From a virus (Duplodnaviria; Caudoviricetes), in the IMG/VR virus record IMGVR_UViG_3300021185_002017: a stretch of DNA of 64,000 nucleotides. One strand, given 5' to 3'. The notes under the pieces were generated by a model. That model worked only from the letters and a program-made list of their open reading frames with translations. It had not been told where the DNA came from and ran no database searches. The translations under genes were made by a program, and so were the position numbers. Positions 4,052 to 57,177 of this stretch are shown here, piece by piece. How positions within the stretch are numbered: position 1 is the first letter of the stretch; each line of letters begins with the position of its first letter.

Positions 4052-4468
4052 TCAGCGGATCAGTTTGGCCTTAAGGGTATCTCGGAGTCTATCGATGATT
4101 GTTTGCTTATCAGTAGTATATGCAGGGTCTTCTTTGCTGTCATCTGCACATGCGTCACACTCTTCACCATCTTCATGATCGTGATCTGGGTGCATAATTA
4201 CTGCTGTTTCTGGCTCTTCGTCGCCTGATACTTCGCCTTCGGGCTCTTCTTGTTTAGGTAATGTAATACCTGCAAGTTTTAAAACATCGTGTAATTCTTG
4301 CATACTTGATGCATTAGCACTTACTGTTACAGAAGCATCACCTTTTCTTTTGGTTTTGCTGTAAGAAACATTTTCGCTGTCTTGATCTTGCCCGTCCATA
4401 CCAGGGTAGCCAGGCATCATGCCTTCCATTAAATTTAATAACTTTTTGTTCTCATCATGATTGTTCAT
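4052..4468 (-). CDS. Acidic hypothetical protein
   Basis: 138 aa ORF coupled to its neighbours; D/E-rich C-half. Confidence 0.7.
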   Translation of the reverse strand: MNNHDENKKLLNLMEGMMPGYPGMDGQDQDSENVSYSKTKRKGDASVTVSANASSMQELHDVLKLAGITLPKQEEPEGEVSGDEEPETAVIMHPDHDHEDGEECDACADDSKEDPAYTTDKQTIIDRLRDTLKAKLIR

Positions 4469-53625: not shown

Positions 53626-53699
53626 GTTCTATTCCTCTTAGACTATTATTTACGCTCTAGCACACACAATAGTTTACAATGTTACAATTTATAACACTT

Positions 53700-54200
53700 T
53701 ATAGACACTTCGTGTCTTACCTTACGCATTCATTTGTTTCATTTCATGAAACGCATTCATTTGTAAGATATTTTTTTTAATTAAGAAGTTATCAAGAAAG
53801 TGGAGCCATAATTCACCTGTTGCCAGGTGAATAAAAAAATGGATGTCATCAAGATGAGCATCGCCATTTATATCTCGGGTGCTGTTAGGAACCGGTGAGC
53901 CTTCTGTCCCCATACACTACCGTCACTGTCTTTCGACCTCACGGAAATTTGTAAAACCTAGAATAATTTAGTTGAACAAATTTGCAGGTTGCTTTTTCTC
54001 ATTGCCTGCATCATTTTAAAGCCATAACGTTGTTTGCTTCTTACCGACTACAGTCCAGAATCTCGCACCGTGTTTAACGGATTGTCAAGGACGACAGTTT
54101 TATAGGCCCTGTCGGGGCGGTGTAGTTCCTTATGTAAGGGTTCTGTGAATTTGCCTGAATTTAGTTTGACTTGGTGTCTGTGTGTGCCTTGTTCGATATA
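53700..54200 (-). ncRNA. Candidate long structured non-coding RNA (unassigned)
   Basis: ~500 nt with no convincing gene, many nested stems and two GNRA-capped hairpins on the minus strand; no family recognised. Confidence 0.4.
53724..53764. repeat. 14 bp direct repeat ACGCATTCATTTGT x2
   Basis: Copies at 53724-53737 and 53751-53764. Confidence 0.85.
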
Positions 54201-54203
54201 TAG

Positions 54204-54629
54204 TTATATCTTTTTCATCGCTTCACGGAGGATTTGTGAACCTCCTACTCTGACATTTATTATACCATTATAATACTCGTCTGTCAAGAGAACTTTGCGA
54301 TTAAATTGTTCTTCTGCTTCTAAATAACTTGCAACGCCTCTACTTGGGCATATATGCAGTATCTCTCTTGTAAATTTATCCTCGCCTAGTTCTAAAACGT
54401 CTGCTTGGAGATGATCCGAGCTACCCCAATAGGTACGCCAGTCACTTTCTTTTGTGCCTCGGCGTTTGTTCTTTTTTCCTTTTAGTGGTGGCTTGGTTGT
54501 TTTAAATTTTGCTAATTTTTTGCCTATGTACTTTTTGTCGTTAGTTGTGTTTGTGATTAAGTATACAAATGCTTCACAACCTTCTGGAAGTGTGTCTATA
54601 GTTTTGTTTTTATAAGTCCATTGCGACAT
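54204..54629 (-). CDS. GIY-YIG family endonuclease-like protein
   Basis: FVYLITN...KKYIGKK, ESDWRTYWGSS, F.REIL..C motifs typical of stand-alone T4-like GIY-YIG proteins. Confidence 0.85.
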   Translation of the reverse strand: MSQWTYKNKTIDTLPEGCEAFVYLITNTTNDKKYIGKKLAKFKTTKPPLKGKKNKRRGTKESDWRTYWGSSDHLQADVLELGEDKFTREILHICPSRGVASYLEAEEQFNRKVLLTDEYYNGIINVRVGGSQILREAMKKI

Positions 54630-54638
54630 AGTACATAG

Positions 54639-55424
54639 TTATCTACTGCCAATGCTATGCACGAACTTATATCGGCTAATCTGTTCTAAGTCGGGTTTGT
54701 GTGTAAGTTTACCTAACTCAATATATCCTATTGCTAATTTTGGGTCGTCAATTGGGTGTGGCAGTTTGTGTGCAATTTGCATACACCAACGCTTTACATG
54801 TTTTGTAACTGCTTTTGCATCAACACACTGATCTGGTGCAAACCATGCAAGTAAATCGCTTTTAACTATGCTAGTGGGAATTATATGTTCTGGTGGAACA
54901 TCTACATCATTGTCGTAGCATATTTCCATTATGTGCTTACCTACATGTGGATAGTTCATGTACAAATAATTATCTAGTCTAGTAGGCGAAAACAATTCGT
55001 AATCACTGTCCTCTAATGGTTGAGGTGAAGGCTCGCCTGTTGCTGTACTAATTAAGAAGCGTCTATTTTTATTGCTTGTTATATCTTCTAAATGATGTAA
55101 GTGATAGTTAAACATACTAAGCCACTCTCGTAACTCTCCTGTTTCATTGTGTACATGGTCCGGGAAGTTTTCGTGTAGTCTATTTAGATCATCACTGCCT
55201 GTGAATATTTCAGGCTTGATGCGTTTGATGTTTTCTATACTGTGATCTAAGTTTGCTTGTACTTCTGCTATTGTTTCGCCCCAGTTATAAAACTGAGTAC
55301 GACTTACAAACTCGTAATTGTTATCTTTGTAGTTGTTCCAAATTACTTCAGCAATACGGTTGTCAAATAGTTCGTATGTGAGTGTGTACTCTGCATTACG
55401 GCCTAAGTGTATATCAATCCACAT
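54639..55424 (-). CDS. Hypothetical protein
   Basis: 261 aa ORF overlapping the gp46 stop; LNRLH.NF...FNYHLHHLE segment. Confidence 0.7.
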   Translation of the reverse strand: MWIDIHLGRNAEYTLTYELFDNRIAEVIWNNYKDNNYEFVSRTQFYNWGETIAEVQANLDHSIENIKRIKPEIFTGSDDLNRLHENFPDHVHNETGELREWLSMFNYHLHHLEDITSNKNRRFLISTATGEPSPQPLEDSDYELFSPTRLDNYLYMNYPHVGKHIMEICYDNDVDVPPEHIIPTSIVKSDLLAWFAPDQCVDAKAVTKHVKRWCMQIAHKLPHPIDDPKLAIGYIELGKLTHKPDLEQISRYKFVHSIGSR

Positions 55425-57177
55425 ATTCGGTGTCAGTGTTGTACATAGTGAATCCTCCTTCCTTGACCACTGTTAGTACATTATTCACTCTACCTACTAG
55501 TTCTTCTTTGTGCGAAATAAGGAAAATATTTTTACCTTGCTCTCTATTCATCTTCTTAAGGATACTTAAGGCGTTCTCTACACCCATTGTATCCATACCT
55601 GAGTCGATTAATTCGTCAATACACATTAGGTTCATCGGCGCATTTAAGCTCTCATACATGTCTCTAAATGCCCAAGATAAGCCCAAAATAAGTCGATTGC
55701 GTTCGCCTCTACTTAGATTATCAAAGTCTAAGTCGCGTCCATATTCTGTTATTTCGACATTTAAATCGTTCGCAAATTTTACATCATGCGGCAATCCTAA
55801 CTTATCTAAGTACCATGCTAACCTGTGATTTAGGTATGCAATGTTCTGATCAATAATCTTTTTACGGATAAAACTATCCTTGCTTGTTAACAGTTTGTAC
55901 AAGAACTCTTGATGATCTTTTAAGAATGTTAATTCATTTATTAAGTCAAAACTAACTTCTTGTAAGCCTGTTTCTTTGAGCATCTCTATTTGTTCAACAT
56001 AAGGATTCTCTTCCTCTTGCTTAGTTTGGTACTGTTGAGCAAGAGATTCTAAATTGTGTTTGTGTTCGTATGCTTCTTCTACTGTAGCATAAAATGTACT
56101 TACTGTTTCAGGCACATCAATAATTTCCATTGCCTTTGTGATTTCATCAACCTTTTGCTCACTGGCAGCATTTAGCTCTGTTTCAGATGCAATCTTTTCT
56201 TTTAGTTCATTTATATAATCGCTGTGTGTATCCAAGTGTGATGTAGTTTGTTTACATGCATGGCATACACCTGCTTCAGCGTCTACTAAGTTTCCTTCAA
56301 GCTCTGTTAGTCTTTTTATGTTGCGTGTATTACTTGCTTGAATTGTTTTTAATTCTTTAGACAATGTGTTATAATTGTCTTGCTGTTCTTTGGCACTAAC
56401 ATTTTGTTTGTGCGATTCAATCTCCTTGTTGACATCTAGTTCGCCTAGTGTAGTTATTGCTACTTCTAGATCTTTTACTTTCTGATTGTGTGTGGCTTCC
56501 CATGCTTTTTTACGGCTTTCTATTTCTTGTATGTTTTTATCTATACGACCGTTTGCATCTTTAACAGCACTGATACGCAACTCTTCTTCTTTGATGTTGT
56601 CACGAGTAAATTTAGTTTTTTCTTTTAGCAACTCTGCTTTTGCACTTAGATCAGTAATACCTAGCAACTGCTCGATCATATCTTTTTGATCGTTGTTCTT
56701 CATACTGAGGAAAGGTTCGCTGTATGTGTTTAATGCAACCAAATGCTTAAACATGTTATGCGGAAAGCCGATAATCTTTTCAATTGCTTTTTGTGTTTCT
56801 CTACTATCGCCTTGCTGTTCTTCGCTTATAGTATCTTCACCGTTTACTATAAACTTTAACACATTAGGTCTACGACCACGCTCAATACGATAGTCAACAC
56901 CCTTAGACTCAAACTCAACAGTGGTCATCATGCCTTTACTGTTTGTTTTGTTAATTAAGTTATCGCGGCGAATGTTAGTAAGTGCCTCACCATACAATGC
57001 ATAACTGAGTGCATTAATAATAGTTGTCTTACCTGTACCGTTTCTACTACCATCTCCACCCATGTCTAAGTTATGACCTAGCACTAGGGTTAGTTGACAG
57101 TTGTCAAAGTTTACTGCTTGAGTATTGTTGCCCACACTCATAAAGTTACGGGCTGATACATTTTTAATCTTTAGCAT
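55414..57177 (-). CDS. gp46: Recombination endonuclease ATPase subunit (gp46, Rad50/SbcC-like)
   Basis: RNFMSVGN, Walker A NGTGKTT, CHAC zinc hook, LSRGE signature, IDELID, LISHK. Confidence 0.95.
   Translation of the reverse strand: MLKIKNVSARNFMSVGNNTQAVNFDNCQLTLVLGHNLDMGGDGSRNGTGKTTIINALSYALYGEALTNIRRDNLINKTNSKGMMTTVEFESKGVDYRIERGRRPNVLKFIVNGEDTISEEQQGDSRETQKAIEKIIGFPHNMFKHLVALNTYSEPFLSMKNNDQKDMIEQLLGITDLSAKAELLKEKTKFTRDNIKEEELRISAVKDANGRIDKNIQEIESRKKAWEATHNQKVKDLEVAITTLGELDVNKEIESHKQNVSAKEQQDNYNTLSKELKTIQASNTRNIKRLTELEGNLVDAEAGVCHACKQTTSHLDTHSDYINELKEKIASETELNAASEQKVDEITKAMEIIDVPETVSTFYATVEEAYEHKHNLESLAQQYQTKQEEENPYVEQIEMLKETGLQEVSFDLINELTFLKDHQEFLYKLLTSKDSFIRKKIIDQNIAYLNHRLAWYLDKLGLPHDVKFANDLNVEITEYGRDLDFDNLSRGERNRLILGLSWAFRDMYESLNAPMNLMCIDELIDSGMDTMGVENALSILKKMNREQGKNIFLISHKEELVGRVNNVLTVVKEGGFTMYNTDTEYVD

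What the first reader, a model, noticed from the sequence alone, without database searches (positions are those of the whole stretch)
53700..54200. Candidate large structured ncRNA downstream of the GIY-YIG gene
Seen: the longest gap without a credible gene in this dense window. Stems (plus coordinates): ACTACA/TGTAGT (54047-54052 / 54121-54126) enclosing CCGT/ACGG (54068-54080) and CGACAG/CTGTCG (54092-54114); TGCAGG/CCTGCA (53983-54010); AAATTTGT/ACAAATTT (53945-53983); CCGT/ACGG (53920-53944) containing GUC-GAAA-GAC; and a 9 bp AUUCACCUG-GCAA-CAGGUGAAU hairpin (53811-53832). Both GNRA loops read correctly only on the minus strand, the same strand as the nuclease gene. Inference: a multi-domain RNA, possibly a partner or guide of the GIY-YIG protein, a ribozyme-like element or an origin-priming transcript.
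Basis: partly seen in the sequence, partly recalled or inferred. Interest (0 to 1): 0.68.

Follow-up and report, generated by a model that had tools for sequence, protein, structure and literature searches.

The report
New large knotted RNA of ocean phages
The gene-free stretch behind a small nuclease gene of this uncultured marine T4-like phage encodes a real, roughly 500-base, intricately folded and knotted RNA that matches no catalogued RNA family, travels with the nuclease gene as one cassette in hundreds of ocean phage contigs, and has an unknown job.

Summary
Observation confirmed.

- **Structure:** across 56 non-redundant homologues, 96% of cells in an 84-pair, 16-helix model are paired, against 35-41% for slid controls. 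48 pairs carry compensatory changes.
- **Tertiary features:** one pseudoknot, and two "twin boxes" that always mutate identically, are also supported.
- **Family:** no Rfam family matches, no ORF is conserved, and no prokaryotic genome holds it.
- **Distribution:** the RNA occurs in more than 230 viral and metagenome contigs. It always lies downstream of, and co-oriented with, a 141-aa domain-only GIY-YIG nuclease gene.
- **Cassette:** the nuclease gene plus RNA has changed orientation relative to its flanks at least 4 times.
- **Other types:** more distant phages carry other, unalignable structured regions (types B-D) at the same place.
- **Limit on the guide idea:** the same nuclease family stands without such an RNA in Melnitz phage and cyanophages, so a guide or partner role is not shown.
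- **Folding energy:** it is uninformative here (z -0.8 to -2.1).

Function is unknown. My best guess, about 40%, is an RNP or regulatory partner of the nuclease. Earlier follow-ups of this scan found the same family in other genomes.

The parts
53700..54203 (-). Whole RNA unit ('type A'), from just after the nuclease stop codon to the terminal hairpin P14.
   Evidence: Conserved as a block with the nuclease gene at 70-97% nucleotide identity. nhmmer gives E 1e-116 over 53690-54137. Alignments A1 and A2. No conserved ORF and no 3-base periodicity.
54127..54203 (-). Variable 5' tract. It starts with the motif AUAACUA, which overlaps the stop codon, holds 1-5 'GGCAC' repeats at 9-12 nt spacing and/or GAC-N5-GUC mini-hairpins, and ends in conserved ACAUAGG.
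   Evidence: 56 representatives. The motif is kept even where other genes separate the nuclease gene from the RNA. GGCAC is not enriched elsewhere in the window.
54047..54126 (-). Domain 1: P1 closes a junction of P2, P3/P3a and P4.
   Evidence: P2 has 4 of 4 pairs with double changes, P4 has 3 of 4, and P1 has 3 of 7 (the alignment register differs between clades).
53945..54040 (-). P5, P6 (with the invariant loop UGAGAAAAAGCAA) and the long hairpin P7.
   Evidence: P6 is 100% paired with 4 of 5 double changes. P7 has 12 of 14 pairs with double changes.
53879..53944 (-). Near-invariant core: P8 (with a hairpin insert of variable length), P9 and P10. It also holds pseudoknot PK1, UGAG (53941-53938) paired with CUCA (53899-53896) in the P10 loop.
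   Evidence: P10 pairs 269/291 and 273/287 covary. PK1 is 100% paired, with 3 of 4 pairs showing double changes.
53845..53854 (-). Twin box 1 (UCUUGAUGAC).
   Evidence: Its variable positions are identical to those of box 2 in 141-142 of 142 distinct sequences, with 2-3 states each.
53811..53832 (-). P12, a 9-bp hairpin with a GCAA loop, preceded by a U-run. Its 3' arm holds an SD-like AGGUGA followed by an invariant UAUG.
   Evidence: 4 of 8 pairs with double changes. Column 254 covaries with the pair 367/382, which points to an alternative helix or a base triple. The FourU resemblance is weak and not significant, E 4.2.
53788..53797 (-). Twin box 2 (UCUUGAUAAC).
   Evidence: No complementary partner was found in the RNA, within +-1.5 kb in 101 loci, or in the 64-kb window.
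53703..53768 (-). 3' module: the long imperfect hairpin P13 (53720-53768) and the terminal hairpin P14 (53703-53717) with a C-GAA-G loop. There is no U-tract.
   Evidence: P13 has 6 of 6 pairs with double changes and P14 has 5 of 6. The module is also present behind the different 'type B' body in L006. No intrinsic-terminator match.
54204..54629 (-). The 141-aa GIY-YIG nuclease gene (catalytic domain only), which forms one cassette with the RNA.
   Evidence: PF19835 E 2.5e-33. phrog_447. AlphaFold2 pLDDT 96.9. Best solved fold is the I-TevI catalytic domain 1LN0, probability 0.99. Invariant Y23, Y34, G36, Y67, S70, E104, N121.

Best explanation
**Shown.** The stretch 53700-54203 (minus strand) is a gene for a new, large (about 450-500 nt), multi-domain, pseudoknotted non-coding RNA. 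It is confined to uncultured marine T4-like (jumbo) phages. Together with the upstream 141-aa GIY-YIG nuclease gene it forms one genetic cassette. That cassette sits at the 3' end of an operon, at the convergent junction between the gp46 (Rad50-like) operon and the baseplate-hub operon, in either orientation.

**Inferred (about 40%).** The RNA is made as the tail of the nuclease transcript, or from a start near the conserved AUAACUA...ACAUAGG tract, and ends at hairpin P14. It folds into a stable particle and works with the nuclease as a ribonucleoprotein or regulator. It would supply what this domain-only enzyme lacks, either substrate selection or restraint of activity. The two 'twin boxes' that flank hairpin P12 are the best candidates for a sequence-reading element. 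They change between phages yet stay identical to each other, and they have no complement nearby. This is as expected if both contact the same variable partner in trans.
For: **Real RNA**
- 84-pair model: 96.1% paired, 48 pairs with double changes, covariation 0.335 against 0.04-0.08 for slid partners, and 0 of 500 shuffles reach it.
- Pseudoknot PK1 is 100% paired, with 3 of 4 pairs covarying.
- Invariant G-U pairs fix the strand.
- No conserved ORF and no codon periodicity.

**New family**
- No Rfam 15 family at E<=10 in the window or in 21 homologous loci.
- No blastn hit in 50,697 GenBank phages.
- 0 hits in 185,579 prokaryote species.
- No description found in the literature searched.

**Linkage to the nuclease gene**
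- The nuclease gene lies upstream on the same strand in every viral locus with enough upstream DNA, and in 89 of 91 metagenome loci.
- Its start codon abuts or overlaps the stop codon of whatever gene lies upstream, in both orientations.
- On a tree of the 935-nt cassette, orientation needs 5 changes, of which at least 4 are forced by well-supported branches.
- More distant phages carry other ORF-free structured regions (types B-D) in the same place behind the same nuclease. Type B has 18 pairs with double changes and its own twin boxes.

**Nuclease**
- It is the catalytic domain only.

**Twin boxes**
-.
Against: - The nuclease family is huge: 7,994 or more clusters at 90% identity and 2,028 representatives at 50% identity, mostly 130-150 aa. 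So 'domain-only' is the family norm.
- Close or clear relatives stand without a large RNA. In Melnitz phage (75% identical) ordinary genes start 150 nt downstream. In cyanophage S-ShM2 the gene is followed by small ORFs and a tRNA. phiM12 is similar.
- The Melnitz protein nests among the RNA-linked ones on the tree.
- In roughly 10% of type-A loci, 1-2 unrelated genes separate nuclease and RNA, some on the opposite strand. The RNA therefore need not be co-transcribed with the nuclease gene.
- The covariance model (CM) of type A does not detect types B-D.
- RNA types do not follow the nuclease tree cleanly, although that tree is poorly resolved.
- No guide-like match to any target was found.
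- There is no expression data. The sigma-70 promoter inside the nuclease gene is not conserved.
Confidence: 0.4

Rival explanations
1. Autonomous trans-acting RNA, such as a ribozyme, a scaffold, or a decoy aimed at host or competitor machinery. On this reading its adjacency to the nuclease gene only reflects sharing the end of an operon, or hitch-hiking with a mobile nuclease gene. The nuclease works alone.
For: - Relatives of the nuclease function without such an RNA.
- Genes are inserted between the two in about 10% of loci, and the conserved AUAACUA...ACAUAGG 5' tract stays with the RNA rather than with the nuclease gene.
- The near-invariant core, pseudoknot and GNRA loops resemble self-contained large RNAs.
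Against: - No instance of the RNA was found without the nuclease gene upstream, among more than 200 loci.
- The pair, and not the RNA alone, is what flips.
- Different RNA types occupy the same position behind the same gene.
Confidence: 0.35
2. Cis-acting 3' element of the operon: a 3'-UTR stabiliser, a terminator or insulator at the convergent junction, or a translational control element (the SD-like AGGUGA plus AUG sequestered in P12).
For: - It always lies at the 3' end of a transcription unit at a convergent junction.
- P14 is a stable terminal hairpin.
- P12 hides an SD-like sequence next to an invariant AUG and gives a weak FourU-like hit.
Against: - About 450 nt with 16 helices, a pseudoknot and a near-invariant core far exceeds what termination or stabilisation needs.
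- The mini-ORF after the AUG is not conserved in frame or length.
- In most loci no same-strand gene follows.
- P14 has no U-tract.
- The FourU hit has E 4.2, which is not significant.
Confidence: 0.1
3. DNA-level element, such as a replication origin with a priming transcript or a recombination or inversion site. On this reading the 10-bp-phased GGCAC repeats are iterons, the twin boxes are recombination cores, and the C-GAA-G hairpin is a stable single-stranded DNA hairpin.
For: - GGCAC repeats at 9-12 nt spacing.
- Identical direct repeats flank P12.
- The cassette inverts repeatedly.
- From my own knowledge, d(GCGAAGC)-type hairpins are unusually stable in DNA.
Against: - Dozens of compensatory changes, with strand-specific G-U pairs, show selection on a single-stranded RNA fold on one strand.
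- No inverted repeats were seen at the cassette ends in the flanks I read. This was by eye, not a systematic search.
- The number and presence of GGCAC repeats are highly variable.
Confidence: 0.07
4. Known element in disguise or decayed coding sequence: a group I intron around a homing endonuclease gene, an IscB/TnpB-type omega RNA, or a pseudogenised C-terminal half of a longer Seg protein.
For: GIY-YIG genes often sit in group I introns of T4-like phages, and T4 Seg proteins are longer than 141 aa (both from my own knowledge).
Against: - No Rfam hit at all.
- The cassette interrupts no gene and occurs in both orientations.
- About 140 aa is the norm for this family.
- No reading frame is conserved.
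Confidence: 0.02

Closest known systems
GOLLD, ROOL and OLE (large 'ornate' bacterial and phage RNAs of unknown or poorly known function; Rfam families; PMC12286853)
   Same: Size class (hundreds of nt), many helices with strong covariation, highly conserved junctions and loops, and (for GOLLD and ROOL) frequent carriage by phages or prophages. Function was unknown at discovery.
   Different: No covariance-model match. The host group differs (marine T4-like jumbo phages). It is strictly linked to a GIY-YIG nuclease gene. It has twin boxes that co-vary by identity.
HEARO / omega-RNA with IscB, and TnpB omega-RNA (RNA-guided nucleases of mobile elements)
   Same: A large structured RNA encoded next to, and co-oriented with, a small nuclease gene, with the pair behaving as one mobile unit.
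   Different: The nuclease fold is GIY-YIG, not RuvC/HNH. No guide segment with an identifiable target was found. There is no RF02033 match. Relatives of the nuclease work without an RNA.
Free-standing GIY-YIG homing endonuclease genes of T4 (seg genes) and I-TevI in group I introns
   Same: The protein has the SegE-type GIY-YIG domain and the I-TevI catalytic fold. The cassette has re-oriented several times at one intergenic site.
   Different: The protein has no DNA-binding domain. The gene is near-universal in its clade rather than sporadic. The RNA is not an intron, because no gene is interrupted.
IS110 bridge RNA (PMC11208160)
   Same: An RNA with two separate sequence-reading elements whose contents are constrained relative to each other.
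   Different: The partner protein would be a nuclease, not a DEDD recombinase. The boxes here are identical direct repeats of about 10-12 nt, with no identified DNA partners. The resemblance is conceptual only and was not tested.
VIPR vrRNA (bioRxiv 10.64898/2026.04.26.720920)
   Same: Phage-encoded, with a variable repeat tract followed by a conserved structured tail.
   Different: vrRNAs are about 100 nt, with 5-nt YNNGG repeats and a RAMP protein. Here the repeats are GGCAC at about 10 nt spacing, the body is about 400 nt, and no RAMP was found.

Membership tests
Any Rfam 15 family (4227 models, including group I/II introns, RNase P, tmRNA, 6S, GOLLD, ROOL, OLE, raiA, HEARO and Polynucleobacter-1 RF01718) | Covariance-model match at or near the family's gathering score. 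| tested here: not met
   No match at gathering score over the 64-kb window. At E<=10 only chance-level hits appeared, to HIV SL4, FourU and snoRNAs, all far below their gathering scores. None appeared in 12 type-A loci or in 9 loci of types B-D. RF01718, named as closest in earlier notes, never appeared.
Group I intron carrying a homing endonuclease gene | Interrupts a host gene, with exons on both sides. | tested here: not met
   The cassette starts at the stop codon of the upstream gene and ends at a convergent junction. It occurs in both orientations.
Group I intron carrying a homing endonuclease gene | P3-P9 core with the P7 guanosine-binding site. | tested here: inconclusive
   No RF00028 hit. 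No manual fit was attempted beyond noting that the S-element-like GAGAUAUA is not conserved.
Omega-RNA / HEARO type guide RNA | A neighbouring IscB/TnpB (RuvC) protein, plus a terminal guide segment that matches a target. | tested here: not met
   The neighbour is GIY-YIG. No complement of the variable boxes was found within +-1.5 kb or in the window.
Type III toxin-antitoxin RNA (ToxI-like) | Tandem direct repeats that are processed by the toxin. | tested here: not met
   Tandem Repeats Finder found no array in the RNA.
VIPR vrRNA | 9-16 YNNGG pentanucleotide repeats and a RAMP (Vipr) gene. | tested here: not met
   The repeats are GGCAC at 9-12 nt spacing, 1-5 copies. I looked for no RAMP by fold. 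The neighbouring 261-aa protein has no Pfam or PHROG hit.
SegE-type GIY-YIG nucleases (Pfam PF19835) - the protein | Domain match, catalytic Tyr/Tyr/Glu/Asn residues, and the GIY-YIG fold. | tested here: met
   E 2.5e-33 over the full profile. Y23, Y34, E104 and N121 are invariant in 70 diverse homologues. The AlphaFold2 model has pLDDT 96.9 and best matches the I-TevI catalytic domain.
Free-standing homing endonuclease (T4 Seg-like) | A C-terminal DNA-binding domain and sporadic presence/absence among close relatives. | tested here: not met
   The protein is 141 aa and is the catalytic domain only. It is present in essentially all loci of the clade. L026-L031 lack both the gene and the RNA at this site.
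One superfamily comprising type A and types B-D downstream RNAs | Detectable homology of the RNA bodies. | tested here: not met
   CM R1 of the type-A core finds nothing in loci of types B-D (E>0.5 with filters off). nhmmer finds only the shared 3' module in L006. What is shared is architecture and motifs: AUAGGC after the stop codon, box-hairpin-box with identical boxes, and a terminal hairpin with a CGAAG loop.

The most novel reading that the evidence does not exclude
The RNA and the 141-aa enzyme form the first RNA-dependent GIY-YIG nuclease. The folded body would be a scaffold. The two identical, fast-evolving twin boxes would read a nucleic-acid target, for example two identical half-sites or the same sequence on two DNA molecules. 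That would give this domain-only nuclease programmable specificity for phage-phage competition or host DNA attack. A parallel novel reading is that the RNA is a new ribozyme class.
Probability: 0.15. Interest if true: 0.95.

Novelty: categorically new. Interest (0 to 1): 0.8.

Why it matters
- Large, highly structured RNAs with strong covariation are rare, and several turned out to be mechanistically important (RNase P, group I/II introns, omega-RNAs, bridge RNAs).
- This one is abundant in the surface ocean. Hundreds of contigs from TARA, JGI and ENA assemblies hold it, on phage genomes of up to about 340 kb.
- It has a pseudoknotted, near-invariant core.
- It carries a feature I know no precedent for: two boxes that vary between phages but remain identical to each other, with no complementary partner nearby.
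- It is genetically welded to a minimal nuclease.
- If the two work together, this would open a new class of RNA-assisted nucleases. If not, it is a new orphan RNA class in some of the most numerous large viruses of the sea.
- Either way it is directly testable with synthetic RNA and protein, because both are small.

Tried and rejected
1. **Known RNA family.** Five cmscan runs found nothing.
2. **tRNA or tmRNA.** ARAGORN found none.
3. **Protein-coding.** The 63-aa ORF 53722-53913 starts at an AUG inside the invariant core. It is open for 35 aa or more in only about a third of homologues, with variable ends, and variability has no 3-base periodicity.
4. **Decayed C-terminal half of a longer Seg protein.** The family norm is about 140 aa.
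5. **The perfect sigma-70 promoter at 54287-54259 as the RNA's promoter.** It is not conserved outside the closest relatives.
6. **T4 EndoII (DenA) identity of the nuclease.** There is no sequence hit to PDB and the best fold match is I-TevI, not EndoII. Only the nrdB-adjacent position in cyanophages and Melnitz is reminiscent.
7. **Canonical 11-nt GNRA receptor in P10 (UAUGG/CCUAA).** The covarying register excludes it.
8. **A closing helix ACAUAG/UUAUG, and an L10-P12 switch.** Neither shows covariation (read).
9. **VIPR-like repeats.** They differ in period and in partner protein.
10. **GGCAC or CACAUAGG as a genome-wide promoter motif.** Neither is enriched.
11. **A cis or nearby complement of the twin boxes.** None was found.
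12. **Homology of types B-D to type A by CM.** Not detected.
13. **Metagenome contigs as a proxy for transcripts.** No contig ends coincide with the RNA ends, so this was uninformative.
14. **Supplement of the 10,000-candidate virus RNA paper.** It is not held, so I cannot tell whether this RNA is one of its unnamed candidates.

Full report
**Context**

The window is part of an uncultured marine T4-like myophage.
- Its nearest GenBank relatives are the Methylophilales phages Melnitz (Kyanoviridae), and they match only in the nuclease gene.
- Around the finding, on the minus strand, lie a Rad50-like gp46 gene (55414-57177), a 261-aa gene with no family match (54639-55424), a 141-aa GIY-YIG gene (54204-54629), and then a 578-nt stretch without a credible gene (53626-54203).
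- After that come a 57-aa lipoprotein-like ORF and, on the plus strand, baseplate-hub genes (Pfam T4_baseplate).

**Check of the observation**

- Single-sequence folding is not convincing. The z-score is -2.06 on the minus strand and -2.01 on the plus strand for the whole gap, and -0.84 for the core.
- Comparative evidence is decisive. Using the neighbouring 261-aa protein as a handle, I fetched 31 related viral contigs.
- In 25 of them the nuclease gene plus about 500 nt downstream are conserved as one block at 70-97% nucleotide identity. In 11 of them the block is inverted relative to the 261-aa gene.
- No ORF is conserved downstream of the nuclease gene.
- RNAalifold on 18 sequences already gave 36 pairs with compensatory changes.

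**Size of the family**

- An 18+8-base pattern from the invariant core retrieved at least 119 viral contigs and at least 119 metagenome contigs (TARA, JGI, ENA).
- The same pattern found none in one genome each of 185,579 prokaryote species.
- From 56 representatives sharing under 96% identity I made alignment A2 and a hand model of 84 pairs in 16 helices.
- On A2, 96.1% of cells form standard pairs, against 35-41% when partners are slid by 1-3 columns.
- 48 pairs show changes on both sides. The covariation score is 0.335, against 0.04-0.08 for slid partners, and 0 of 500 shuffles reach the observed values.
- Many invariant G-U pairs fix the strand as the nuclease strand.
- The 63-aa ORF that starts inside the invariant core is open in only about a third of sequences. 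Column variability has no 3-base period: 0.153, 0.184 and 0.151 for the three phases.

**Anatomy (window, minus strand)**

- *5' tract, 54203-54127.* It is variable. It starts with AUAACUA, which overlaps the stop codon, carries 1-5 GGCAC repeats at 9-12 nt spacing and/or GAC-N5-GUC mini-hairpins, and ends in conserved ACAUAGG.
- *Domain 1, 54126-54047.* P1 encloses P2, P3/P3a and P4.
- *Middle, 54040-53945.* P5, P6 with an invariant loop, and the long hairpin P7.
- *Core, 53944-53879.* P8, P9 and P10 are nearly invariant.
- *Pseudoknot.* UGAG (53941-38) pairs with CUCA in the P10 loop (53899-96). It is 100% paired, and 3 of 4 pairs covary.
- *Column 254.* It covaries with the P12 pair 367/382, which points to an alternative helix or a base triple.
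- *3' part.* Box 1 (53854-45), a U-run, hairpin P12 (53832-11), box 2 (53797-88), the imperfect hairpin P13 and the terminal hairpin P14 with a C-GAA-G loop (53717-03). No U-tract follows P14.

**Twin boxes**

Earlier notes on other genomes said that two boxes always mutate together. I tested this on 142 distinct sequences.
- The positions just 5' of UGAU are identical in both boxes in 141 or 142 of 142 sequences.
- Those positions take two or three states each (U/A/C, A/U, A/U/G).
- Rarer changes 3' of UGAU are mirrored as well.
- No column of the RNA covaries with the boxes as a complement.
- No reverse complement sits at a fixed place within +-1.5 kb in 101 loci.
- The 64-kb window holds no other exact copy on either strand.
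- I have no explanation that the data prove. A shared partner in trans is the simplest.

**Linkage to the nuclease gene**

- In every viral locus with enough upstream sequence the nuclease gene lies upstream on the same strand. The same holds in 89 of 91 metagenome loci.
- The stop codon is usually about 270 nt before the core.
- In roughly a tenth of loci other genes are inserted between the two: an opposite-strand 165-173-aa ORF, or two same-strand ORFs. In those loci the AUAACUA...ACAUAGG tract stays with the RNA.
- The nuclease start codon abuts or overlaps the stop codon of whichever gene is upstream. That gene is gp46, the 261-aa gene, or, in inverted loci, a small hub-operon ORF.
- On a tree of the 935-nt cassette, orientation needs 5 changes, of which at least 4 are forced by well-supported branches. 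The nuclease protein tree alone is too poorly resolved to show this.
- The nuclease gene plus RNA is therefore the unit that moves.

**Wider picture**

Searching with the nuclease protein gave more than 586 viral loci.
- Of the best 80, 39 carry the type-A RNA, 14 are too short to tell, and 27 carry no type-A RNA.
- Most of those 27 still hold a 450-600-nt ORF-free region behind the gene. These regions fall into type B (15 loci), type C (5), type D (4) and singletons.
- Type B is itself structured, with 65 predicted pairs, 18 of them with double changes, among 14 sequences. It shows its own twin boxes flanking a hairpin.
- A covariance model of the type-A core does not detect types B-D, and Rfam knows none of them. 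A single superfamily is therefore suggested by architecture but not demonstrated.

**The protein**

- It matches PF19835 (SegE GIY-YIG domain) and phrog_447.
- The family has at least 7,994 clusters at 90% identity, on contigs up to 344 kb, and 2,028 representatives at 50% identity, mostly 130-150 aa.
- The catalytic Tyr, Tyr, Glu and Asn are invariant.
- AlphaFold2 gives pLDDT 96.9, and the best solved match is the I-TevI catalytic domain.
- There is no DNA-binding domain, but that is the norm for the family.
- In GenBank the family is often mislabelled 'NAD synthetase'.
- In cyanophage S-ShM2 the gene follows nrdA/nrdB and is followed by small ORFs and a tRNA. In Melnitz it follows the RNR small-subunit gene, with real genes starting 150 nt downstream.
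- The Melnitz protein nests among the RNA-linked ones on the tree.

**Interpretation**

What is shown:
- This is a new, large, pseudoknotted phage RNA.
- It forms a cassette with a minimal GIY-YIG nuclease gene.

What is inferred:
- Its role. I give about 40% to a functional partnership with the nuclease (RNP, specificity factor or inhibitor).
- About 35% to an autonomous RNA that merely shares the cassette.
- About 10% to a cis-acting 3' element.
- About 7% to a DNA-level element.
- About 2% to a known element or decayed coding sequence.

The strongest argument for partnership is that the pair, in several RNA versions, stays together through repeated rearrangement. The strongest argument against is that near relatives of the enzyme manage without such an RNA.

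**Comparison with known systems**

- It resembles GOLLD, ROOL and OLE in size, ornateness and phage carriage.
- It resembles omega-RNA/IscB in genetic layout.
- It is a member of none of these: no covariance-model match, a different protein fold, and no guide-target match.
- I found no paper that describes it. I could not check the unnamed candidates of PMC10690425.
- Earlier follow-ups of this scan reported the same family in other genomes. Their 'Polynucleobacter-1' resemblance is not borne out by cmscan here.

Noticed in passing
L290, L317, L328, L342, L006 (type B); L284, L315 (type C); L321, L339 (type D); each 0-600 nt downstream of the nuclease stop codon: More distant phages, whose gp46 is about 50-55% identical, carry different ORF-free structured regions of 450-600 nt behind the same conserved nuclease gene. 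These regions cannot be aligned to type A. Type B covaries and has its own twin boxes (CACAUGAAG | UACAUGAAG).
   Followed up: partly
window 54259-54287 (-): A perfect sigma-70 consensus promoter (TTGACA-17-TATAAT with an upstream TG) lies inside the 3' end of the nuclease gene and points into the RNA. It is present only in the closest relatives, where it might add a separate start for the RNA.
   Followed up: partly
L041, L060, L095, L098, L127 (-850 to -330 from the RNA core); L040, L111 (-1750 to -290): Some lineages have inserted genes between nuclease and RNA. In one group it is an opposite-strand 165-173-aa ORF. In another it is a 343-aa ORF plus a 142-aa ORF on the same strand. I did not identify their functions.
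   Followed up: no
GenBank records of cyanophages and rhizobiophages (for example NC_015281.1 163368-163817; NC_027204.1 162711-163124): This GIY-YIG family is widely annotated as 'NAD synthetase' in GenBank and in PHROG 447. That appears to be a propagated misannotation.
   Followed up: partly
window 54639-55424 (-): The 261-aa protein between gp46 and the nuclease gene has no Pfam or PHROG match. It is present in only some lineages, while others join gp46 directly to the nuclease gene.
   Followed up: no
window 53720-53768 (-): In this phage the two arms of P13 carry an exact 13-nt direct repeat (CAAAUGAAUGCGU, twice). This second internal duplication was not seen in the more distant homologues I looked at.
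   Followed up: no
L350 (S-ShM2) 4113-4185: In this cultured cyanophage a tRNA-Arg gene lies about 200 nt behind the homologous nuclease gene, and annotated small ORFs overlap it. In these phages too, stable-RNA genes follow this nuclease gene.
   Followed up: no
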